From assembly GCA_024137785.1 (NCBI GenBank), contig JAHRHZ010000222.1, positions 30,546,785-30,610,784 of the forward strand: a stretch of 64,000 bases of DNA, given 5' to 3'. The stretch is from Ginglymostoma cirratum. Its lineage: Eukaryota. The notes under the pieces are model-generated. The model saw only the letters and a program-made list of their open reading frames with translations. It did no database searches and had not been told where the DNA came from. Numbering within the stretch: position 1 is the first letter of the stretch; every line of letters begins with the position of its first letter. A program made the position numbers and the translations under genes. Positions 1,800-64,000 of this stretch are shown piece after piece.

Positions 1800-1938
1800 A
1801 CCTAGAAAATGCTGGAAAAATTCAGTAGTTCTGGCAGCGTACTTGGAGAAAGGGACACAGATAACGTTTCGAATCTTGTATGACCGTTCTTCTAGGAACA
1901 TGCCATTGAACTTTGATGCTGCCTTTTCCGGCATCTCT
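1800..1938 (-). mobile_element. PLE 3'-tail mini-element with degenerate hammerhead motif and partial fold-back
   Basis: AAATGCTGGAAAAATTCAG..TCTGGCAGC..GATAACGTTTCGAATC..TGACCGTTCTTCTAG; homologous to the 34725-34954 element; short inverted remnant GATGCTGCC..TTTTCCGGCAT. Confidence 0.6.
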
Positions 1939-7469: not shown

Positions 7470-7870
7470 AAGAATCACAGAATGATATAGCACAGACAGA
7501 GACCATTTGGTCCATTATGCCTGTGCTGACTCTTTCAAAGAGTTATCCAATTCGTCCTATTCCCCTGCCCTTGCATCATAGCCCTTGCATGTTTTTCTGC
7601 TTCAAGTATTTATCCAATTTCCTTTTCAAAGTTAATAATGAATCTGCTTCTATCAACCATACAGCCAGTGGTCCCAGATCATAATAACACAGTGTGTAAA
7701 AAGTTTCCTCCCTTTCTAGTGTCTTATTTTTCTTTAACCAATTATTTTAAACCTATTTCCCTTAACTATTGGCTTTCCTATCACATGGCACTAACTTTAG
7801 AAAGTGTTTCTTCATTTACTCTATTATGCACTCATGTCAATCTTCTATAAATATGTCTTTGAAAACTCAA
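7470..7870 (-). mobile_element. CR1 3' end fragment
   Basis: GAATCACAGAATG..GACCATTTGGTCCATT..TTCAAGTATTTATCCAATT..GTGTAAAAAGTTTCC, homologous to 11625-12035. Confidence 0.75.
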
Positions 7871-10369: not shown

Positions 10370-10542
10370 CCTGAAACAGAAGAATTGAAATTGATGGAGA
10401 AACCTAACAGCACCTGTGGAGAGAAATGCAGTTAACATTTCATGTCCAGCGACCCTTCCTCGGATATCAGATCACACACTGGAAACATTAACTCTGCTAT
10501 CTCTCCACCAACATTGCCTGACTGACTGAGTTTCTCCAGAAG

Positions 10543-10546
<4 letters not shown>
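10370..10546. mobile_element. Palindromic PLE-tail mini-element (decayed)
   Basis: GGAGAGAAATGCAGTTAACATTTC is inverted against GAAACATTAACTCTGCTATCTCTCC; centre GACCCTTCCTCGG is the reverse of a hammerhead 5' core. Confidence 0.65.
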
Positions 10547-10575
<29 letters not shown>

Positions 10576-13500: not shown

Positions 13501-13585
13501 ACACTGAATTGCTAAGAGCACTTTTAGACCACAGTGACAGGAGCAGAAATAGGCCACTCAGCCCACTGACTCTGCTTGGCCATTC

Positions 13586-15027
13586 GAGATAACAAGGTAT
13601 GGAGCTGGATGAACACAGCAGGCCAAGCAGCATCATAGGAGCAGGAAAGCTTGACATTTCGGGCCTAGACCCTTCATCAGAAATGGGGGACGGGAAGAGG
13701 GTTCTGAAATAAATAGGGAGAGAGGGGGAGGCGGATAGAGGATGGATAGAGGAGAGGATAGGTGGAGAGGAGACAGACAAGTCGAAGAGGCGGGGATGGA
13801 GCCAGTAAAGGTGAGAGTAGGCGGGGGGGTAGGGAGGCGATAGGTCAGTCCAGGGAGGACGGACAGGTCAAGGGGGCGGGATGAGGTTAGGAGATAGGAG
13901 ATGGGGGTGCGGCTTGAGGTGGGAGGAGGGGATAGGTGAGAGCAAGGACAGGTTAGGGAGGCAGGGACGAGCTGGGCTGGTTTTGGGATGCAGTCGGAGG
14001 AGGGGAGATTTTGAAGCTTGTGAAATCCACATTGATACCATTGGGCTGCAGGGTTCCCAGGTTGAATATGATTTGCTGTTCCTGCAGCCTTTGGGTGGCA
14101 TCATTGTGGCATTGCAGGAGGCCCAGGATGGACATGTCGTCTGAGGAATGGGAGGGGGAGTTGAAATGGTTCACGACTGGGAGGTGCAGTTGTTTGTTGC
14201 AAACTGAGCGCAAGTGTTCTGCAAAACGGTCCCCAAGCCTCCATTTGGTTTCCCCGATGTAGAGGGGGCCACGATGGGTACAGCAGATGCAGTATACCAC
14301 ATTGGCAGATGTGCAGGTGAACATCTGCTTGATGTGGAAAGTCTTCTTGGGGCCTGGGATTGGGGTGAGGGAGGAGGTGTGGGGCAGGTGTAGCACTTCC
14401 TGTGGTTGCAGGGAAAAGTGCTGGGTGTGGTGGGGCTGGAGGGGAGTGTGGAGCGGACAAGGGAGTCACGGAGAGAGTGGTCCCTCCGGAAAGCAGACAA
14501 GGGTGGGGAGGGAAAAATGTCTTTGTTGAGGGGTCGAATTGCAGATGGCGGAAGTGTCGGAGGATGATGCGTTGGATCCGGAGATTGGTGGGGTGGTACG
14601 TGAGGACGAGGGGGATTCTTTTTTGGTTGTTGTTGCGGGGACGGGTTGTGAGGGATGAGTTGCGGGAAATGCGGAGACACGGTCGAGGGCGTTCTCGACC
14701 ACTGCTGGGGGGGATCTTGCGATCGTTGAAGAATGTGGACATCTGGGATGTACGGGAGTGGAATGCCTCATCCTGGGAGCAGATGTGGCGGAGGCGAAGG
14801 AATTGGGAATAGGGGATGGCATTTTTGCAGGAAGGTGGGTGGGAGGAGGTCTATTCTAGGTAACTGTGGGAGTCGGTGCGCTTGAAATGGATATTGTTTT
14901 CTAGGTGGTTACCCGAGATGGAGACAGAGAGGTCCAGGAAGGGGAGAGAGGTGTAAGAGATGGTCCAGGTGAACTTCAGGTTGGGGTGGAAGGTGAAGTG
15001 GATGAACTGTTCGAGCTCCTCATGGGT
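13586..15027 (-). mobile_element. Penelope-like element, 5'-truncated: RT C-terminus, GIY-YIG endonuclease, 3' UTR (left arm)
   Basis: FHPNLKFTWTISYTSLPFLDLSVSI..KRTDSHSYL (RT), RIPLVLTYHPTNLRIQRIILRHFRHLQ and FTCTSANVVYCICC..LYIGETKWRLGDRFAEH..VVNHFNS..LGTLQPNGIN (GIY-YIG); frameshifted. Confidence 0.95.
13650..13683 (-). ncRNA. Mirror copy of the hammerhead motif (GAAACGTC changed to GAAATGTC)
   Basis: Reverse strand reads TTTCTGATGAAGGGTCTAGGCCCGAAATGTCAAG. Confidence 0.65.
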
Positions 15028-15909
15028 GCCCGACCACACCCGGCACTTTTCCCTGCAACCGCAGGAAGTGCTACACCTGCCCCACACCTCCTCCCTCACC
15101 CCCCATCCCAGGCCCCAAGAAGACTTTCCACATCAAGCAGATGTTCACCTGCACATCTGCCAATGTGGTATACTGCATCCACTGTACCCGTTGTGGCCCC
15201 CTCTACATCAGGGAAACCAAGCGGAGGCTTGGGTACCGCTTTGCAGAACACTTGCGCTCAGTTCGCAACAAACAACTGCACCTCCCAGTCGCGAACCATT
15301 TCAACTCCCCCTCCCATTCCTCAGACGACATGTCCATCCTGGGCCTCCTGCAATGCCACAATGATGCCACCCAAAGGCTGCAAGAACAGCAAATCATATT
15401 CAGCCTGGGAACCCTGCAGCCCAATGGTATCAATGTGGATTTCACAAGCTTCAAAATCTCCCCTCCCCCAACCGCATCCCAAAACCAGCCCAGCTCGTCC
15501 CTGCCTCCCTAACCTGTTCTTCCTCTCACCTATCCCCTCCTCCCACCTCAAGCAGCACCCCCATCTCCTATCTCCTAACCTCATCCCGCCCCCTTGACCT
15601 GTCCGTCCTCCCTGGACTGACCTATCTCCTCCCTACCTCCCCACCTACACTCACCTTTACTGGCTCCATCTCCGTCTCTTTGACTTGTCTGTCTCCTCTC
15701 CACCTATCCTCTCCTCTATCCATCTCCTATCCGCCTCCGCCTCTCTTCCTATTTATTTCAGAACCCTCTTCCCCTCCCCTCTTTCTGATGAAGGGTCTAG
15801 GCCCGAAACGTCAAGCTTTCCTGCTCCTATGATGCTGCTTGGCCTGCTGTGTACATCCAGCTCCATACCTTGTTATCTCGGATTCTCCAGCATCTGCAGT
15901 TCCTACTAT
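15028..15909 (+). mobile_element. Inverted second copy of the PLE 3' region (GIY-YIG + complete 3' end; right arm)
   Basis: ORF 15141-15512 FTCTSANVVYCIHC..LYIRETKRRLG..; reverse complement of ~13586-14437 plus an extra ~30 nt terminus GATTCTCCAGCATCTGCAGTTCCTACTAT. Confidence 0.95.
15782..15815 (+). ncRNA. Minimal type I hammerhead ribozyme motif in PLE 3' UTR
   Basis: TTT-CTGATGA-A-GGGT(CTAG)GCCC-GAAA-C-GTC^AAG: conserved cores, stem II, palindromic ACGT helix III, GUC cleavage triplet, 3 bp helix I. Confidence 0.75.
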
Positions 15910-16684
15910 CTCCGCTTGGCCATTCAATGAGATTACGACAGATTTGATAATCCTCAACTCCACTTTCCTGCCTTTTCCCATGTAACCCTTGATTAAAGAT
16001 GTGTCTATCTCAGCCTTGATGATAGTTGAGAACCCAGCCAGCCTCCACAACCCTCTATGATAAAGAATTCCCCAGATTTACAACCCTCTGAGAGAAAAAA
16101 ATAGCTAAGATGGTAGGCATATATTCATATAAGAGGAAACTAGATAAGCATGGGGAAAGAAAGGAACAGCAGTGTGCACTGACACAGGTGCTTGGTAAAG
16201 GACAGGACTGTCATCCAAGAAGGCAAGCTGTGCAAAATATGGTGAGAAAATAGGATGTTGGCCAGAATAAAAATTAAGAAAGAACTACTCCCTCTCAAGG
16301 AGCTAATGGCCTTTAAAACTTTTAAGTCGTCCTTACAAATTCCTGAAGTGATTAATTCAGTGAATAAATGTGAAAACATGCTGCACAATATTATCACGAA
16401 CAGAGGCCTCTCACCATGGAAAATCAGGAGGAAAATATATGCAAGGACCACGAAAGAAAATCCACTACAAACATAAAGCTGGCCCAGGAGGGTAACATCA
16501 ATGCATTAAACCTCTCATGAGCACTAGGAATATTTTCCATTGCCTACATCAAAAATCACGGAACTACAAGTTATCTAATTTTATTTTGTTTTTGCTAAGA
16601 ATTGCATATGTTCATTTAGCTTTACTTTAGAAAAAAAATACTTGTTTTGCAATGAAAGGATGGTAAGGCTTACTAAGGACACAC

Positions 16685-17039: not shown

Positions 17040-17724
17040 TGGATGGATGGTCAAGATGGCAGCAGACTGGAAGGCTCCTACCAAAGCTCCTCCGCTCCTT
17101 CTGTTTATTTCCCATTTCCTTCTCTTTTTTTCCTCTTTTTAGTTTTTATCTCCCTCTTAGAATTTACCTCCCCCAAAGCAGGTCTCAGCTCTGTCTCTCA
17201 GCGATTCGTGGCAGGGCCCGGCCTGGTCTCTCAGCAGCTCGTGGTGGGTCCCGGCCTGGGCTCTCTGCAGCTCATGGTGGGTCCTGGCCTAGTCTCTCAG
17301 CAGTTCATGGTGGGTCCCGGCCTGGTCTCTCGGCAGCTCATGGTGCNNNNNNNNNNCTCGGCAGCTCATGGTGGGTCCCGGCCTGGTCTCTCAGCAGCTC
17401 ATGTCGGGTCCCAGCCTCATCTCTCAGTAGGTCTCAGCCTGATCTCTCGGGGTATGTCGGCCAGTCACTCAGCGGCACGTGGCAGTGTCCCGGCTTGGCA
17501 TGCAAGTGGATCCTGCCCAGGCATGTTCCCAAGGTACCGGTGGAGAGGAGGCAGTTTCAGTAGTAGTGATGGTATCCGCGGCGGCAGCATCGAGAACTGA
17601 CAGCTGAGGTCTCTCAGAGAGCGAGATAAGTGGAGGACTCATCAAAGACTGTTAAACTTTTAACATTCCTTTATTTTCCTAATTTAAACTATGAAAGACT
17701 TCAATGTTAACTATCACTTTATTT
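17040..17724 (+). mobile_element. CpG-rich non-autonomous element of uncertain family with internal minisatellite
   Basis: Starts GGTCAAGATGGCAGC, pyrimidine tract, 33 bp array, retained CpGs, AT-rich tail abutting the next PLE. Confidence 0.4.
17194..17425. repeat. 33 bp GC-rich minisatellite (about 7 copies visible; spans a 10-N gap)
   Basis: Unit TCTCTCAGCAGCTCATGGTGGGTCCCGGCCTGG; it accounts for the repetitive ORFs 17039 and 17043. Confidence 0.9.
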
Positions 17725-17725
17725 G

Positions 17726-18389
17726 GAGATAACCAGGACTGCAAATGCTGGAAGTCAGAGTCAATAAAATGTGGAGCTGAATGAGCAAAGAAGGTCAGGC
17801 AGCATCTGAGCAGCAGGAAAATTGACTTTTCAGGTCAAGACCCTTCATCAGGACTGGGGAGGGGGAAGGGAACTGGGAAATAAATAGAGGGACGGATGTG
17901 GGGCTGGGGGAAGGTAGGTGGGATGGTGCTGGGTGGATGCAGGTAGGAGACTATGGAGATCGCTAATGAGAATGATGGGGCAGATAGGTGAGAAGGGAGA
18001 TGGACAGGTTATGTCAGGTCAAGGAGGCGGGGATGAAAGCAAGGGCTGGACAAGAGATGAGGCTGGGGGTGAGGAGATTTTGAACCTGATGAGCTCTATG
18101 TTGAGGCCATTGAGCTGTAAGCTCCCAGAGTGGAATATAGGGAGTTGTTCCTTTGGTTTACGTGTGGCCTCATTGTGACAGTGGAGGAGGATCAGTATGG
18201 ACATATTGCCAAGGGAGTGGAAGGGGGTGTTGAAAAGGCTGGCCAGTGGAAGGTGTTGTTAATTATAGTGCACAGAGCGCATGTGATCTGTGAATCAGTC
18301 ACCAAGTCTGCGTTTGGTCCCACTGATATAGTGGAACTCCTCTACATCGGTGAGACCAAGCACAGACTCAGTGACCGATTCACAGATCA
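17726..18389 (-). mobile_element. Older PLE 3' fragment (GIY-YIG + tail + hammerhead) with 52 bp 5' snap-back
   Basis: MSILILLHCHNEATRKPKEQLPIFHSGSLQLNGLNIE (18019-18204, minus); hammerhead CTGATGAAGGGTCTTGACCTGAAAAGTC at 17824-17851 (minus); LLYIGETKHRLSDRF on plus at 18337-18381. Confidence 0.9.
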
Positions 18390-18439
18390 AACGAAATAGA
18401 GCAACAAGTCCCATTCACAGCCCTTTACCGGTTGTCAAT

Positions 18440-18800
18440 TCATCAAAATATCAATTTTGCAATTTGCAACTTTGATTTAAAATCTATTCAAGGTCTCACC
18501 TCTCCATACCTCTGAAACATCCTCCAGCTGCATAATCCTTAACTTACACGTATTCATCCATTTCTGGCCATTAGAGTAGCACCAATTTTAATTACTCCAT
18601 CATTAATCGCCTAGGCTCCAAGTTCGGGAATCCCTTTCCCAAGTCTGATTTTCTAACTCTTTTTTTCCTTTAATATGCTCCTTAAAACGATCCTCCTTGC
18701 CAAGCATCTTCTTATTTTGCTCTATAACAAATTTTGTTTTCCAGCACTTTGGAATTTTATCACATTAGAAGGTGCTACATAATTAGAAGTTGGTGTTGTT
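18440..18800 (+). mobile_element. L2 LINE 3' end (decayed)
   Basis: CCTAGGCTCCAAGTTCGGGAATCCC..CTCCTTAAAAC..AGCACTTTGG..AAGGTGCTACATAA, an L2-type tail shared with the copies at 28880 and 50200. Confidence 0.6.
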
Positions 18801-34379: not shown

Positions 34380-35760
34380 CATGTTATGGTCACTCTTTCC
34401 TTAAGGACCCAATACATCAAAATTATTAGTTAACCACTTCTCACTGTACAACACTAAACCTTGGATAACCTGCTCCCTAATTGGTTCCAAAATGTACTGG
34501 TCTGTAAACAGCATCTTGAAAACACGCCAGAATTCATCTACCCAACAGTATTACTGCAAATATGGGTTGCCTATTCTACATATAAAGTTAGCCATGATTA
34601 CCTTGGTATGTCCGTTACACATACCTCAAACTTTTTGATTCATGACATCCCCTGTTTGGATGCCAAAAAGAACTCCCAAAAGAACACATTTTGTTATTTC
34701 TCAGTTCCACCTAGACTAATTTCACAAAATAAAAACCGAAAGAACTGCAGATACTATAAATCAGGAACAAAAAAAGAGGTTGCTGGAAAAGCTCAGCTGG
34801 TCTGGCAGCATCTGTGCAGAAAAAATCAGAATTAACATTTTGGGTCTGGTTCTGAGGAAGGGTCACCGGACCCAAAACGTTAACTCTGATTTTTTTCTCC
34901 ACAGATGCTGCCAGACTGGCTGAGATTTTCCAGCAACTTTTGTTTTTGTTGTGAACTAATTTCATAGTTGGATTTTCAGAGCCAATACTCTTTCTCATTG
35001 TTGCACTAATATAATCCTCTCCTAAAATTCCATCCCACTTTCTTTACTTTTTTTCATGTTCTTCCTAAATATTGAATATACTTGGATATTCAGATCACAG
35101 CCTTGGTTACCTTGCAGCCATGTTTCCATAATCACAAACATATCATACCTGTTTACAACTATTTGCACTATTAATTCATCTATCTTATGGTGAGTCTATT
35201 ATTCATTCATATAATACCTTTAGACATGTCTTTTTAACATTTGTTCTGACATACTTTGTATTAATGCCCCATTTGCTGCGCCCCTTATTTTCTCTGCCTT
35301 CCAGTTATACTTTCTACATTTCTGTTTTTCAATTCTTTCTTGATTTCCTTCTCTCGGGTATCCCAGTTTAGATTCCCACTCCCTGCTACTCTAGTTGAAA
35401 TCCTCCCCCAAGGTTATTACAAAATGTGACGATATTGGTTTTGGTCCTGCAGTGGTTCACGATTCTCAGCCTAACTATTTATTTTGCATTGCTGTGGATC
35501 ATATATTTATTGGTTGTAGGTGATTCCACACCCATTTTAGTTATTTTAAAAAAAAACATTTTGCTGTGCTTTTGGTTGCACTTCAGCTCCACAATCCTGA
35601 TCTTTGGGCATCCGGTATGAAGTAGTATAGGCAAATCAGAGGACCTCTTCATGGGTTTGCTCTGGCCTGGACAAGTTAGCCATTAATAGATCCAGATAGC
35701 TGTGGAGAGGGTCATAGCTGTCAACTGTCTGCCCCTCTTTTGTGGCTATGTTCATGTCTG
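34380..35760 (-). mobile_element. CR1 5' region (APE endonuclease and ORF1 remnant)
   Basis: Reverse of 35085-35215 gives KIDELIVQIVVNRYDMFVIMETWLQGNQGCDLNIQ (CR1 EN N-terminus); split by the 34725-34954 insert. Confidence 0.8.
34725..34954. mobile_element. 230 bp palindromic PLE-tail mini-element with 10 bp TSD and central hammerhead motif
   Basis: TSD ACTAATTTCA at 34715-34724 and 34955-34964; inverted arms ~34767-34850 and ~34865-34950; CTGAGGA-A-GGGTC(ACCG)GACCC-AAAACGTT at 34852-34881. Confidence 0.85.
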
Positions 35761-57870: not shown

Positions 57871-57956
57871 CAAGGGTCTAGGCCCGAAACATCAAGTTTT
57901 CCTGCTCCTATGATGCTGCTTGACCTGCTGTGTTCATCCAGCCCCATGCTTGTTAC
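57871..57956 (+). mobile_element. PLE 3' tail fragment starting inside the hammerhead
   Basis: AAGGGTCTAGGCCCGAAACATCAAGTTTTCCTGCTCCTATGATGCTGC is nearly identical to 15791-15875. Confidence 0.85.
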
Positions 57957-58615
57957 CCCCCCCATTGATGTGCTCAACTACATCTTCAAATACTTGGCAT
58001 GGCTGTAAAGCTCACAACCACATCTCACTGATTTTAATACCATCAGCTATGCAACAATAATGTGAACAGCACTCAAACAGATTACAACACACTCTGTCAC
58101 ATTTTCCTTTCTTTTGCCGAAAGATGGGACATAATCAGAGGCAATAGGAGCTAACTGGAAAAGAAGGACAGGTACATCTGTACTAACCCCCAAACAGCAA
58201 ATATTGCTGGCAATTTCTGGGATGAGAATGGCCAACGGCAGGTCTCAAACCACTGAAAATAATAGAATCCTTTTTATTATTTCCATATCCATCTCATACT
58301 ACCTTCTCTCCTTATTACCAAGTTGTGGATGGTGTAATCATGGACCTTTTAAATTCCTTGCATAGTAACCTTCCCATAATGATTTATTCTTTTAGAAGTA
58401 CTGCTGATGCGGTAAGGAGGCCTATTTAATTTGCTGTTCAAATGTACGGAATAACAGGCAGATTCCTTTACCAGCAAACACTTCACTATTCCAGATTTTC
58501 TATATTTCAGTGTGCCTGAAGGATCCAGTCCACTCAGAAGTAAAAAGTTTCCACAATCTCAGGGCACGATTTTCATAACAGGTTCTCTATTGGAGGAAGG
58601 TTAGAATAGAATGTA

Positions 58616-58742
58616 GAGATAGCAAAAACTGCAGATGCTGGAGTCAGAGACAACACAATATGGAGTTGGAGGAAGACAGCAGGCCAGGCAGCATCAGAGG
58701 TGCAGGCAAGTTGACATTTCGGGGACCCAAACTCAACTTTTT
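58616..58742 (-). mobile_element. PLE 3' tail with complete terminus and tiny fold-back at the hammerhead
   Basis: GAGATAGCAAAAACTGCAGATGCTGGAG..AGTTGACATTTCGGG-GA-CCCAAACTCAACT. Confidence 0.75.
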
Positions 58743-61700
58743 GGTTAAACTTGAGCTTCTGTAAGCATTGCACCACGAAGAGTAAGGAAAAAAGATTTTG
58801 GCATTATCAGAAAAACATCCAGTACAATACTACAGTAGAGAAACTACAATTAAAGTATAGAGTAGAGGGGTGTGGAGAAGGTGAAGAGCCTGCAGATTTG
58901 CAGACAAGTGTATTATTAGGTTTCAGCTTGAGGTAAAACCTAAAGGAATGGTTTTGGGCAGAGGAAAGTGGGAGGTGGCCATTACTGGAGTGTCTGCATT
59001 CACGTGAGACAACACTGGGCCTTCCACTCTTTTTCAAAGGCAACTTTAATTATTCTCCTGGTATTTTCTAGTGTTAATAGTTCCATTGATAAATGGGTGC
59101 AGAATCAATGGCTTTCCTGCCATCATAATGGGGTACAGGAAAATCCATTGTGGTTTGGGTAAAATCCTAAGAAATATATTTAATATTTCCTACTGAAATG
59201 CTGCCATTTAACAACTAAATTATTTGCAATTAGGATATAAGCTTTTCATATATGAACTCATAAACAATGTATTAACATAATTCAGTGCTGTGGTCATATT
59301 ACTTCATTGCAAAGATCCACTACAGTAGGCATTTTCATTTTCTACGTGTGTGTAATTGAGACAGATAACACCCTTAATATCTCAGCAATAGCAATTAGAT
59401 TTGGCAAACTACTAGTTTAATTCAAGCGAAAGTCCATTGCGAGGTTTTAGGCTGTGGCTCCTTTGTGCAATTAAAAATAAATTTACTCCATCTTCCATCT
59501 TTCTTTATGTTCTAGATGAGTTTATTTTCAAATGTTCTACTTACTGTGATTGCTGGTTCTTCATCGTCTAGTTTGCTCTACAGTTTGATTTTATTTTGCT
59601 TCTTTCGTTCTAGTTCTGAGGTGTTCTGTTATTTTTAAATTTTTTTTTCTTCATTTTTGCCTTGTTTTATTTGTTGCAATTGTCCAACATATTTATTGTT
59701 TCTCTTACTAACTTTGTTTCCATCTTGCTGGGTTTTTTTGTCTCCCTAATTTGGTAATTTTACCCTCTGAAATTTAACTGTGTCTCTAAGACCTTGGAGT
59801 CAGCTCACTATAACAATTGGACATATGGCAATAGGACTTTAACAACTACGCTGCTACAATATACAATAAGCTCCATTTTCCCTTAACCCAGTGAAATAAG
59901 ACACAATGGTATGATATTCTGGCATGTGACCATTATGTCAATTTAGACAGTTATGCAACAGTAAATGCAGGCAGGAATGTGCAAATGCTGATCCATAGCA
60001 ACTTAAATCACCACTGGCAGTAAGTTAAAAGGTCCAATCAGGTTTTAGTTGGAATGATCCAAATTTACTGCTTCAGTGAGCAGGAATGGGGTGTCTGAAA
60101 TTTACTAATGAATGTGACATCAAGTACCAGTGGGAGAAGAAACAAAACAAAGACTAAAGTGCAAAACTGACCATATTTTAGAGAGGACTGACTGTTTATT
60201 TTGGTGACTTCACCACCTTAAAAGATTGAAACCAGGTAGAATCTATGTTATCACATACATAGTATGCTATTCCTCTGTAACCTGCATTGGAAATTTCCAT
60301 TGTTTGCAAATACAAATTGAAACAAAATGATGAGTTCAACTGAATTGCCAAAAGACTAACAACCTGAAATGAATGGCAAAAGGAATGGTGAAATAAAATA
60401 AATTCTGAACTATCAGCAAAGTGCCAAAGTCCAAAAAGTTATTTAGGTCCAATATCGGTCACTTACTCCACGGGCAACTGCTATTTAATCAAGCCCTGGT
60501 CAGGTCGGCAAGTGCAATATATTATGGATGGATTTACTTCTGCCTGCGGAAATCAGGCTGGTCAACAGTTAAAATTTCCTGTGGGCCTCACTTCCTAAGG
60601 TGCCAAATTGATGCTGTGAGCAACAATTATAATGTACTTTTAGGTGACGGCGACTTAAGAGGAAGATCAAGCTCTGATTATGTTATTAGGGCCCCAACTG
60701 CTATTTTAACTGAGTAGTGAAAGCAGGTATAGTATTCCTGTTGAGTCCATCTTCTGGGAAGAGGGAGTCAGGGTCAGAATCCTTGTTTTTGTGTTTACAT
60801 GTGCAGTCTGGGGGACTGAACTGCTCCTTTGGGCCTTGCAAAAAACTAGTTTAGGCCATCCCTGCCTTGGACTTCTGTGGGTTCATGTTGGTAAATGATC
60901 AACTTGTATCCTATCAGAATAATCCTTTGCTATGATTTAATGCAAACAAGATTCATTGCAAACATTGTACAAGGCATTTAAAAGGACAAACACATATGGT
61001 ATTCATGCATTATCCCTCCATAATGCACATATCCCTCCATATCCCTTCATTTTGCACAATCTCTCGCATATTGACAAAAATAATTTTAACACCTTTAATC
61101 TGCTAACTTCGTATTAAGTTCTGGGCCAAGTTAAACTTATAACACCATGAGAGAACACTGCATGATGATTTGGAAATGAATCCACTTCAATTGGTCTGCT
61201 TAGTTCAGCAAGGTAAAACAATTTACTGCCATGTTAAACCTCCATTGGAATTTGGAAACCAGTTAAATACTGCAAAAAGAAGTCTTATAGCTACATTGTA
61301 ATTTTCCAGATGGCAGTAAGCCGCTTCAAAAATGACAAACAGTTGAAATTCCATTCCCTTTATTACAGTTTAAATAACACAGTACAATTGCTTTAGTTCA
61401 AATCATGCAAATTGACAGCAAAAATCTGTAATTGAGAGCTGACTGCCATGACCTCCAACACCATCAAAAAAAAAGAGTTCAGATGATGTTAATAAACCAC
61501 ACAACCGTAGCTTCTTAGTTTACCTCTTCTCGACCTTTAAATGCATGGCTGCCTTGTGGCACATTCCAACCTACATGGTACATATTTAGCATAAATACAG
61601 AATGTTGCTCTATTTTAATTATGTAAATTGACAGCTACCAGAATTAATATAGAGCAATGCAGCTAATCAGAGATCAGGAGTCTAAACAAAGGTGATTGTT

Positions 61701-62500: not shown

Positions 62501-63769
62501 TGTTGATACAAAAGCAGTTCAAAGGCTCTAAATTCTACAATGGGTAACCCACCTCCTGACTGTCCACTGTTAGAAAATGAATCCTCACGACAGCTGATCA
62601 AGGTGTAAAAAGCATCTGATCGATTTACTGCTGCTGCCTTCTTTCCTGGTAGGGAACCACAGGGCCTACTTAGTCTACTGTGGTAGAGGAAAACCACTTG
62701 TTAGTCCACCGAGGAAAGGCTCTTGAAACAAGATGTGGTTTATTGGATGATAGCAACTACGCACAAGATACACAGATTTAATAGACACTGTTACTGAAAT
62801 TATGAGGATGGCCTTGTTGTTAGGTCTTACTCCTTTGACATTCAAAGCTGCTCACCTGCCTGAGCATATGTGACATCTTCATGTTAGATGACACTCAACA
62901 TACCCCTCAGCATTTGCAGGCAGGCCTATATACCTTATACAACTTCTCCCACCATGTAAGCTGTGTCCATATTTACATTTACTAATACCCTGTCTTCCCC
63001 AAGTCTCTGTTGATTCTTGCAGCCTGAAATCTCTACTGATCTGATAAGATTGGAAAACGTTTCTGTCAACCCTGTATAGCCTCAGATTTCCATCTTGCAG
63101 ACTGTATGAAACTAATTTCTTATGCCAGCATAGCTAATTCAATTGATTCTGTCTTCTGTTTGGGTTCCTCAAAAATAATTGGACGCTCTATGAAATTTTC
63201 TACCAATTGCTCCTTGATCAGTTGCTCAGTTACCAAAATTTTATTTGACCTGCTTTTCCCTGACAGGCTGTGTCTTATTCACCTCTTCCATAACTGGTTG
63301 ATCCTTGACTTTAACTAATTTGACTTCTGCTTTCTGAATAAAATATCATCAAAACACGTACTCATGTTCAAAAGTGAAAACTCTTGATTGTGAAGCAAAT
63401 ATAAGTCCTCCCTTTGTAGTGCATGTTGCTTGTATCATAGTTTTAACCATAAATGCTATACCTCCTGCATCATGAATTTGCACCACTATCGACTATAAAT
63501 AGTGTTCTTTTCAACCATGGTATGCCATCCGCTAATGTACTGACACTTGGCCCTGGTTTAAGCTTAAAGTTGGTGAGGTGTCCATTGTTATAAATATCCT
63601 CCTGCCAAAAGTCTATGTCTGAAACACCTATTTTCCTTAAGTATACCTTTGGCTTTTCTTCTATTGTAGTCTGCTTGAGCTCATTTATTTCTTGACGTGT
63701 GAGGCTTTTTATCATCTCGTTGCTCCATGAAGGCCTTATTTCAGAACATTTTCTTCCTTTTAATTCATT

Positions 63770-63870
63770 TTTTTGTGGGATGTGGGTGATGCTGGCTCAG
63801 CCAACATTTATCCCCATCCCTAATTGCCCTTGAGAAGGTGGTGGTGAGCTGCCTTCTTGAACCTCTCCGT
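63770..63870 (-). mobile_element. LINE/SINE 3' tail
   Basis: CATCCCTAATTGCCCTTGAGAAGGTGGTGGTGAGCTGCC is the reverse of the 19720-19795 tail. Confidence 0.85.
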
Positions 63871-64000
63871 GCAATGTAGAGAAGACCTCTACACTGGGGA
63901 AACAAAGCATAGGCTGGGTGACCACTTCACAGAATATCTACGTTCTAGCTGCAAAAATGTCCCTGAGCTTCCAGTTGCCTGCATCTTCAACATACCACCT

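What the first reader, a model, noticed from the sequence alone, without database searches (positions are those of the whole stretch)
34715..34964. Hammerhead-centred palindromic mini-retroelement that mimics a MITE
Seen: a 230 bp insert with 10 bp TSD ACTAATTTCA, ~85 bp inverted arms made of PLE 3' tail, a hammerhead motif at the hairpin apex, and an extra ~40 nt terminus on one arm only. This is the architecture of the 2.3 kb palindrome, shrunk to the ribozyme-to-end segment. Related or decayed versions occur at 1800-1938, 10370-10546 and 58616-58742, and the fragment at 57871 also starts inside the hammerhead. Inference: the ribozyme fold or its cleavage sets the truncation and fold-back point, giving a class of non-coding hairpin elements that automated tools could label as DNA-transposon MITEs or SINEs. 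Whether they amplify as a unit or arise anew each time is open. This is my best candidate for an under-described system in the window.
Basis: partly seen in the sequence, partly recalled or inferred. Interest (0 to 1): 0.7.

Follow-up and report, generated by a model that had tools for sequence, protein, structure and literature searches.

The report
Penelope hairpin stub marking RNA start
This small DNA hairpin is one of thousands of stubs of a Penelope-type jumping gene, likely made anew at each landing by copying the front of the element's RNA twice in opposite directions, and the stubs stop at one spot that likely marks where that RNA begins, not where its ribozyme cuts.

Summary
The 230-bp insert, 10-bp target duplication, inverted arms and one-sided tail are real. 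It is the shortest insertion form of a 3.2-kb Penelope-like element (Neptune-type by linker motif), whose full-length parent I found. It is not a self-amplifying MITE. Among 65 two-arm copies picked by the tail alone there are 62 junction types. This copy's junction has 544 exact genome hits (11% of comparable junctions), sits on a microhomology, and occurs with the tail on either arm (16 versus 8) and on two subfamily backgrounds. Arm ends are far from random: 95 of 179 stop within -2..+6 of a point 4 nt before the hammerhead core, at an initiator-like motif with a TATA-like box about 30 nt upstream. A second family shows the same edge. There is no excess at the cleavage site (4 of 79), and this copy's hammerhead has a core mutation. 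Best reading: two short cDNAs run off the RNA's 5' end and are joined by microhomology. Against the simple form of this: near-full-length copies mostly cross that point (8 of 9). No RNA-start data were available. This scan's notes already describe such stubs in this and other genomes.

The parts
34715..34724 (+). Left target-site duplication, 10 bp
   Evidence: exact match to 34955-34964
34725..34765 (-). PLE 'tail': the stretch between the outer and the inner reverse-transcription start site, present on this arm only
   Evidence: tail-less arms end near +100..+110, tailed arms near +139; two start sites bound the tail in vitro for an Anolis PLE
34725..34850 (-). Tail-bearing arm, about +139 back to +17 of the element's presumed RNA; breaks in the stem II loop of the hammerhead
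34849..34850 (.). Junction: 2-nt exact microhomology (4 nt with one mismatch) shared by the two arms
   Evidence: parent sequence upstream of the core; 544 exact hits of this junction genome-wide
34849..34950 (+). Tail-less arm, +2 to about +103; begins at the family's common stopping point
34849..34885 (+). Minimal type I hammerhead relic: first core box 34852-34858, stem II 34860-34873, second box mutated at 34874 (G12 lost), cleavage position after 34881; paired away inside the hairpin
   Evidence: motif type from PMC4209133
34951..34954 (+). Four filler or end bases before the duplication
34955..34964 (+). Right target-site duplication, 10 bp
13574..15925 (+). Related: 2.3-kb head-to-head insertion of a sister PLE family, with a one-sided tail and a 12-bp duplication; long form of the same layout
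10370..10560 (.). Related: decayed two-arm stub
   Evidence: 72-75% identity hits
1800..1900 (-). Related: decayed arm
57872..57947 (+). Related: one-arm stub of the sister family starting inside the hammerhead
58610..58745 (-). Related: tailed arm of another sister family, ending near stem II
   Evidence: read by eye

Best explanation
The element is a stub of a 3.2-kb Penelope-like retrotransposon, likely formed anew at this site when two short cDNAs, primed from the two nicked target strands, ran off the likely 5' end of the element's RNA and were joined head to head by microhomology. Shown: parentage; variable junctions; the same junction with the tail on either arm; both arms of a copy share subfamily marks; a sharp common stopping point at -2..+6; TATA-like and initiator-like motifs placed for a start there; no excess at the ribozyme cut site. 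Taken from in vitro work on an Anolis PLE of another clade: both target strands are nicked and extended, reverse transcription starts at two internal sites that bound the tail, and uncut RNA is the main template. Inferred: the stopping point is a Pol II transcription start, so the stubs resemble retroviral strong-stop DNA. They are so common because the binding and priming sites lie only 100-140 nt from the RNA's front. The staggered nicks give the duplication of about 14 bp. The hammerhead rides along and is not what sets the length.
For: Parent with pLTR-ORF-pLTR, unit 3,166 bp, RT and GIY-YIG-type motifs. Of 133 tail-selected insertions: 65 two-arm, 49 one-arm, 15 long, 4 dropped for N; 62 junction types among the 65. 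95 of 179 arm 5' ends lie in -2..+6, 1 in -10..-3, p about 5e-67 against uniform; sister family 21 of 78 and 0, p 3e-9. Genome-wide, 26,259 exact hits just inside the edge against 4,645 spanning it, using two different patterns of similar length. Contigs of eight public runs show loose ends piled at +4..-1; in the four runs the sequence beyond has no consensus (agreement 0.33-0.43). TATA-like word at -28..-32 in 26 of 41 and initiator match in 33 of 41 hammerheads with pyrimidine-rich upstream; the 41 include about 6 truncated copies. Junction-selected loci: tail left 16, right 8, neither 6 of 30. Subfamily indel: 11 G/G, 9 -/-, 1 discordant, 6 unscored of 27, p 3e-5. Arms are closer within a copy than between copies (0.092 vs 0.112, n=27; 0.079 vs 0.096, n=36; 0 of 10,000 permutations). 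Mechanism in vitro: PMC11167929.
Against: No direct measure of the RNA start: only contigs were held. Near-full-length copies mostly do not stop at +1: of 14 that run at least 1.2 kb into the ORF, 8 extend upstream of it (-16 to -1014), 1 stops at it and 5 stop short (contrast with the stubs p 3e-4), so long copies need a second route. The most common end is +2, not +1, and the edge is soft (-2..+6). In the sister family it is softer still, with many ends at +7..+13. D. virilis Penelope has a TATA-less internal promoter with its start well upstream of the hammerhead. Arkhipova et al. 2013 read head-to-head palindromes as self-priming on antisense RNA. Samples are exact-match hits from the first contigs only (C1-C8), so they lean to young copies. 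Duplications were found in only 60 of 114 short copies.
Confidence: 0.68

Rival explanations
1. The hairpin is a non-autonomous element that is copied as a unit from one or a few master copies (MITE- or SINE-like amplification).
For: 544 exact copies of this junction. All 40 best DNA hits are full length with the same asymmetry, but they were chosen by likeness to the query.
Against: 0 of 65 tail-selected two-arm copies have this exact junction and 62 types occur. The same junction carries the tail on either arm and sits on two subfamilies with both arms matching. Left-left and right-right distances between copies are no smaller than left-right (0.110, 0.113, 0.112). A second junction length is equally common (13 of 100).
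Confidence: 0.07
2. Hammerhead cleavage or the ribozyme fold sets the truncation or fold-back point.
For: The stopping point coincides with the 5' strand of helix I (+1..+4). A lesser cluster of ends lies around stem II (+13..+27).
Against: No excess at the cut site (4 of 79, p=0.28; 0 of 55). Most arms run through the whole motif before stopping. Ribozyme mutants do not change insertion in vitro for the Anolis PLE. The stem II cluster fits microhomology between arms.
Confidence: 0.07
3. The RNA's 5' boundary is made by splicing or other processing, not transcription start: the parent has CAG directly before the most common end, and in D. virilis the intron ends at helix I.
For: PMC4209133 places the D. 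virilis intron end at helix I. The parent has a pyrimidine-rich stretch and AG at +1/+2, and the most common end is +2.
Against: No shared upstream exon follows the ends. The sister family has no AG at that place yet shows the same edge. No GT..AG joint to this point appears among the joints shown (both lists were cut).
Confidence: 0.1
4. The arms first landed as a longer near-perfect palindrome and the asymmetric centre arose later by deletion in genomic DNA, or one arm was made by fold-back self-priming on the other.
For: Near-symmetric junctions are common (43-nt class, 13 of 100). Short-spacer palindromes are unstable (recalled). Self-priming was proposed for rotifer PLEs. Arm similarity fits this as well.
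Against: One-arm copies show the same stopping point, so the edge does not need a palindrome. Many junctions carry filler bases, as in end joining. The tail-less arm ends at its own fixed site, which fits a second priming event.
Confidence: 0.1

Closest known systems
Insertions of endonuclease-bearing Penelope-like elements with an inverted 5'-truncated pLTR and a one-sided 30-40 bp tail (Craig et al. 2021, PMC8557442, passages; Arkhipova et al. 2013, PMC3846280, passages)
   Same: Head-to-head arms, tail on one side, variable duplication, microhomology joins; TATA plus initiator-like motifs were noted in a rotifer pLTR.
   Different: Here the form is shrunk to 100-140-nt arms that make up most insertions (114 of 129 scored) and share a sharp 5' edge; the passages read do not describe such an edge.
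Poseidon of Anolis carolinensis, PAc (Frangieh et al. 2024, PMC11167929, main text parts 1-2 of 4)
   Same: Two internal reverse-transcription starts bounding the tail, both target strands extended, hammerhead just upstream, cleavage not needed.
   Different: Different clade (this parent has the CX4CX2C linker). In PAc the ORF starts within the hammerhead, whereas here the first long frame starts after the tail. The paper does not map the RNA start or describe hairpin stubs in the parts read.
Minimal type I hammerheads of metazoan PLEs (Cervera and de la Pena 2014, PMC4209133, parts 1-2 of 4)
   Same: Same minimal motif. The paper notes widespread single motifs and pairs on opposite strands 100-700 bp apart, ascribed to truncated PLEs.
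   Different: It does not analyse their ends. This copy has lost G12 and is locked in a hairpin.
Non-LTR retrozymes (Cervera and de la Pena 2020, PMC7229834, passages; Li et al. 2026 preprint 10.64898/2026.07.22.740005, parts 1-3 of 5)
   Same: Short, non-coding, pLTR-derived, hammerhead-bearing, dependent on PLE enzymes.
   Different: Retrozymes are head-to-tail tandem units defined by two working ribozymes; these are dispersed head-to-head or single stubs.
L1 twin priming and retroviral minus-strand strong-stop DNA (both recalled, no paper read)
   Same: Priming from both target strands with a microhomology join; a short cDNA that runs off the RNA's 5' end.
   Different: Both arms copy the same stretch from two fixed internal starts; there is no tRNA primer, poly(A) or integrase.

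Membership tests
EN+ Penelope-like element insertion | [quoted passage not shown] | tested here: met
   Full copies L241 and L245; RT motifs and the CxxC/YIG nuclease motif read in frames. Pfam RVT_1 E=3e-4, below its cut-off; no Pfam hit for the nuclease piece.
EN+ Penelope-like element insertion | pLTR from partial tandem arrangement | tested here: met
EN+ Penelope-like element insertion | Inverted 5'-truncated copy with a 30-40 bp tail on one side | tested here: met
   tail-less arms end mostly at +100..+110; 2 of 65 have both tails
EN+ Penelope-like element insertion | Variable-length target duplication | tested here: met
   60 of 114, 8-18 bp, median 14; control 2 of 114
EN+ Penelope-like element insertion | Minimal hammerhead in the pLTR | tested here: met
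   Motif in parent and family; G12 lost in this copy; activity not tested
Neptune clade | CX2-5CxxC motif between RT and nuclease (shared with Nematis) | tested here: met
   CX4CX2C in the L245 frame 1440-1874; definition
Neptune clade | Placement in an RT tree | not tested
   No tree was built
MITE (class II) | Terminal inverted repeats at both ends shared with a DNA transposon | tested here: not met
   Arms are PLE pLTR sequence and one end has a 41-nt overhang
MITE (class II) | Fixed-length target duplication | tested here: not met
   8-18 bp
MITE (class II) | Uniform copies amplified as a unit | tested here: not met
SINE | Head derived from tRNA, 7SL or 5S RNA with a Pol III promoter | tested here: not met
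   No such Rfam match in the window; the whole sequence aligns to the PLE parent
SINE | Own master copies transcribed and copied as a unit | tested here: inconclusive
   One-arm stubs share a 5' edge, which short transcripts from solo pLTR promoters could also give; two-arm stubs are not unit copies
Non-LTR retrozyme | Head-to-tail tandem units each with a whole hammerhead | tested here: not met
   Head-to-head single insert; rare tandem stubs exist (L094)
Non-LTR retrozyme | Self-cleaved circular RNA | not testable with these tools
   Needs RNA; only contigs were held
Named Dfam/Repbase family | Match to a curated consensus | not testable with these tools

The most novel reading that the evidence does not exclude
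The stubs are the PLE equivalent of strong-stop DNA. Copying starts 100-140 nt from the capped RNA front and runs off it, and most products integrate as stubs. In a minority the cDNA jumps to the second pLTR, or runs round a ribozyme-made circle, and goes on into the promoter and ORF. This would explain why near-full-length copies usually carry sequence upstream of +1 (8 of 9 that reach it) and how the pseudo-LTR and its promoter are regenerated, a step the Penelope literature leaves open. The hammerhead would then sit at the very first bases of the RNA, where a cut removes the cap.
Probability: 0.3. Interest if true: 0.7.

Novelty: new variant of a known kind. Interest (0 to 1): 0.4.

Why it matters
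The single insert is ordinary and dead. The population is useful in two ways. First, it is a natural read-out of PLE insertion, a cycle the field calls unresolved: it marks the two priming sites, the nick stagger and, likely, the RNA start, and it separates the ribozyme cut site from all of them. It gives a cheap testable prediction (RNA starts 4 nt before the hammerhead core) and a contrast (stubs stop there, long copies pass) that bears on how pseudo-LTRs are regenerated. Second, tens of thousands of such hairpins could be mislabelled as MITEs or SINEs in repeat libraries.

Tried and rejected
Rfam scan of the window: no hammerhead or other relevant family. Unit amplification, suggested by the 40 best DNA hits, was a selection effect and fell with tail-only sampling. 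Excess of ends at the cleavage site: tested, none. Shared upstream exon after the common end: none. An extra G from copying the cap at +1: about 7 of 15 ends read by eye against 5 expected, not informative. RNA evidence: no RNA holder listed, all 15 runs held as contigs, so start, strand and level could not be read. The first break caller over-extended some ends, so final counts use the stricter caller, which in turn can stop a few bases short in diverged copies. My first label, Penelope/Poseidon, was dropped for Neptune-type after the linker motif was checked. Single-sequence folding does not show the hammerhead core fold, as expected for a minimal motif. Lunse et al. 2017 could not be read (not held; one search was an unrelated paper). 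Nine paper searches gave no description of this hairpin family or of the 5' edge. Subscription papers, Repbase and Dfam were not searchable, and no supplements were read. A sequence look-up in the scan's notes found nothing; word and place look-ups did.

Full report
Observation. The insert lies between exact 10-bp duplications at 34715-34724 and 34955-34964. Its arms pair over 60 nt at 88% and 31 nt at 90%, and the RNA folds into one hairpin far beyond shuffles (z -15.4). The left end carries 41 extra bases. The hammerhead is complete only on the tail-less arm, has lost G12 in this copy and is paired away in the hairpin. The genome has 4.36 billion bases.

Parent. Tail-bearing copies that run on upstream led to long copies and to two full-length ones, L241 and L245, with pLTR, ORF and pLTR and a unit of 3,166 bp. 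The broken frames show RT motifs, a CX4CX2C linker and a GIY-YIG-type nuclease motif. Pfam gives RVT_1 at E=3e-4, under its cut-off, and nothing for the nuclease piece. By the linker motif as defined in PMC8557442 (passages) it is Neptune-type (Nematis shares the motif); no tree was made. I number from +1, the A four bases before the hammerhead core; the cut site is after +34, the inner end near +103 and the tail end near +139.

Abundance and sampling. A DNA search gave 40 of 40 full-length look-alikes, but these are chosen by likeness to the query. To avoid that I searched the tail alone: 3,213 and 5,738 exact hits for two disjoint patterns. I analysed the first 90 hits of the first list (89 insertions, as two hits were one locus) and the first 44 of the second, all from contigs C1-C8. 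For the sister family of the 2.3-kb palindrome there are 19,997 hits, of which I analysed the first 70.

Junctions vary. Of 133 insertions, 65 have two arms, 49 one arm, 15 run on past -40 and 4 were dropped for N. The 65 two-arm copies show 62 junction types, none exactly the query's. The sister family gives 29 types among 30. Genome-wide the query's junction has 544 exact hits among 4,885 hits of a pattern that allows any centre up to 26 nt (symmetric loci count twice), or 11%. In the first 100 listed, 13 are 24 nt long (12 of the query's type by eye) and 13 are 43 nt long, mostly a near-symmetric junction. The query's junction sits on a 2-nt exact, 4-nt imperfect microhomology between the stem II loop on one arm and the bases before the core on the other.

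It is made anew. Among 30 loci chosen by the junction alone, the tail is on the left arm in 16, the right in 8 and unscored in 6; one master cannot give both. In 27 of 45 junction-type loci with both arms alignable, a subfamily indel is concordant in 20, discordant in 1 and unscored in 6 (p 3e-5). Arms within a copy are closer than arms between copies, and there is no left-versus-right signature. Duplications were found in 60 of 114 short copies (control 2 of 114), 8-18 bp, median 14; the sister family gave 35 of 48 (control 0). This rules out a MITE and fits PLE insertion as described in PMC8557442 and PMC3846280 (passages).

The common edge. Of 179 arm 5' ends, 95 lie in -2..+6, with the peak at +2, and only 1 lies in -10..-3. 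The sister family has 21 of 78 and 0, with a broader shoulder to +13. Exact-pattern counts agree: 26,259 just inside the edge and 4,645 across it (different patterns, so the ratio is rough). Contigs from eight public runs show loose ends at the same place, and the sequence beyond has no consensus; these reflect genomic copies, not RNA starts. There is no excess at the cut site (4 of 79, p=0.28; 0 of 55). The parent has a TATA-like word at -29 and an initiator match at +1; sister families have one at -30..-32 and an initiator at the same place. In all, 26 and 33 of 41 hammerheads with pyrimidine-rich upstream show them, the 41 including about six truncated copies. By eye the two TATA words are not at homologous positions, so spacing to +1 is what is kept. 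A TATA plus initiator was also noted in a rotifer pLTR, whereas D. virilis Penelope has a TATA-less promoter and an intron ending at helix I.

Mechanism. In vitro, the Anolis PLE protein nicks and extends both target strands, starts at two internal sites that bound the tail, and uses uncut RNA (PMC11167929, parts 1-2). Applied here by inference: one strand primes at the tail end, the other at the inner site, both cDNAs reach the RNA front within 140 nt, are trimmed, and join each other or the flank by microhomology. This gives two-arm and one-arm stubs. The template could be the front of the full RNA or short RNAs from the thousands of promoter-bearing 3' fragments; the data do not separate these.

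Result against the simple model. Of 30 copies chosen by the tail-to-ORF junction (204 hits), 26 have adjacent pLTR: 12 extend upstream of -7, 3 stop at the edge and 11 stop short. Among the 14 that run at least 1.2 kb into the ORF the counts are 8, 1 and 5. Tail-started arms stop at the edge 60 times and pass it 20 times, so the contrast is strong (p 3e-4). A unit-length RNA starting at +1 cannot by itself give these. Strand transfer to the second pLTR, a ribozyme-made circle (proposed in PMC4209133), read-through RNA or nested insertion could. Schostak et al. state that no obvious mechanism regenerates the pseudo-LTR apart from tandem formation (PMC2377424, abstract and passages), so this is where the population could be informative.

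Prior description. The inverted copy, tail and minimal hammerhead are known, and opposite-strand hammerhead pairs were noted in Schistosoma. Retrozymes are tandem (PMC7229834 passages; 2026 preprint parts 1-3). Also seen as passages only: PMC8969392, PMC5753468, PMC6155905. Nine searches found no account of these stubs or their 5' edge; Dfam, Repbase, subscription papers and supplements were not seen. The scan's own notes describe the same stubs and the RNA-start idea many times, in this genome and others. They are unchecked and add no support. My reading was recorded before I opened them, and they gave me the Neptune lead, which I then tested.

Verdict. A real feature and a new variant of a known kind: the minimal by-product of PLE insertion, not a new self-copying element and not cut to length by its ribozyme. 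Interest 0.4, resting on the sharp edge and on the contrast between stubs and long copies.

Noticed in passing
L245 (reverse strand), about 35 nt after the tail of the 5' pLTR; also +55 within the arm: A pyrimidine tract and AG directly precede the first ATG of the long frame, and a second acceptor-like site lies at +55 in this family only; a 5' UTR intron spanning the priming sites is possible (by eye).
   Followed up: no
family alignment, about +57..+64 with the tail: A helix pairing the arm with the tail is predicted in both families and encloses the inner priming site; covariation was not tested.
   Followed up: partly
L049, L070, L078, L098, L110, L182, L207, L148, L149: Sister-family PLE ends are inserted in or next to stubs of this family rather often, hinting at a preference for pLTR targets (by eye).
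   Followed up: no
L038/L039, L080: Two of 65 two-arm stubs have the tail on both arms; in L038 both tails share a private variant.
   Followed up: no
L094; joint 4068 to 3932 on L241 in two runs: Head-to-tail repeats of the roughly 137-nt unit occur, a possible seed of retrozyme-like arrays.
   Followed up: no
L241 rc 1354-1577, L244 rc 682-896, L245 rc 7515-7723: Hairpin stubs of sister PLE families with the same layout turned up by chance in flanks.
   Followed up: partly
window 17164-17466: A 33-bp tandem repeat of about eight copies with a short N stretch.
   Followed up: no
window 17725-18440: A tailed arm of another PLE family, with a 52-bp hairpin at 18284-18389 in its nuclease region, probably another head-to-head junction.
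   Followed up: no
window 63747-64000: PLE nuclease-region fragment at the window's end.
   Followed up: no
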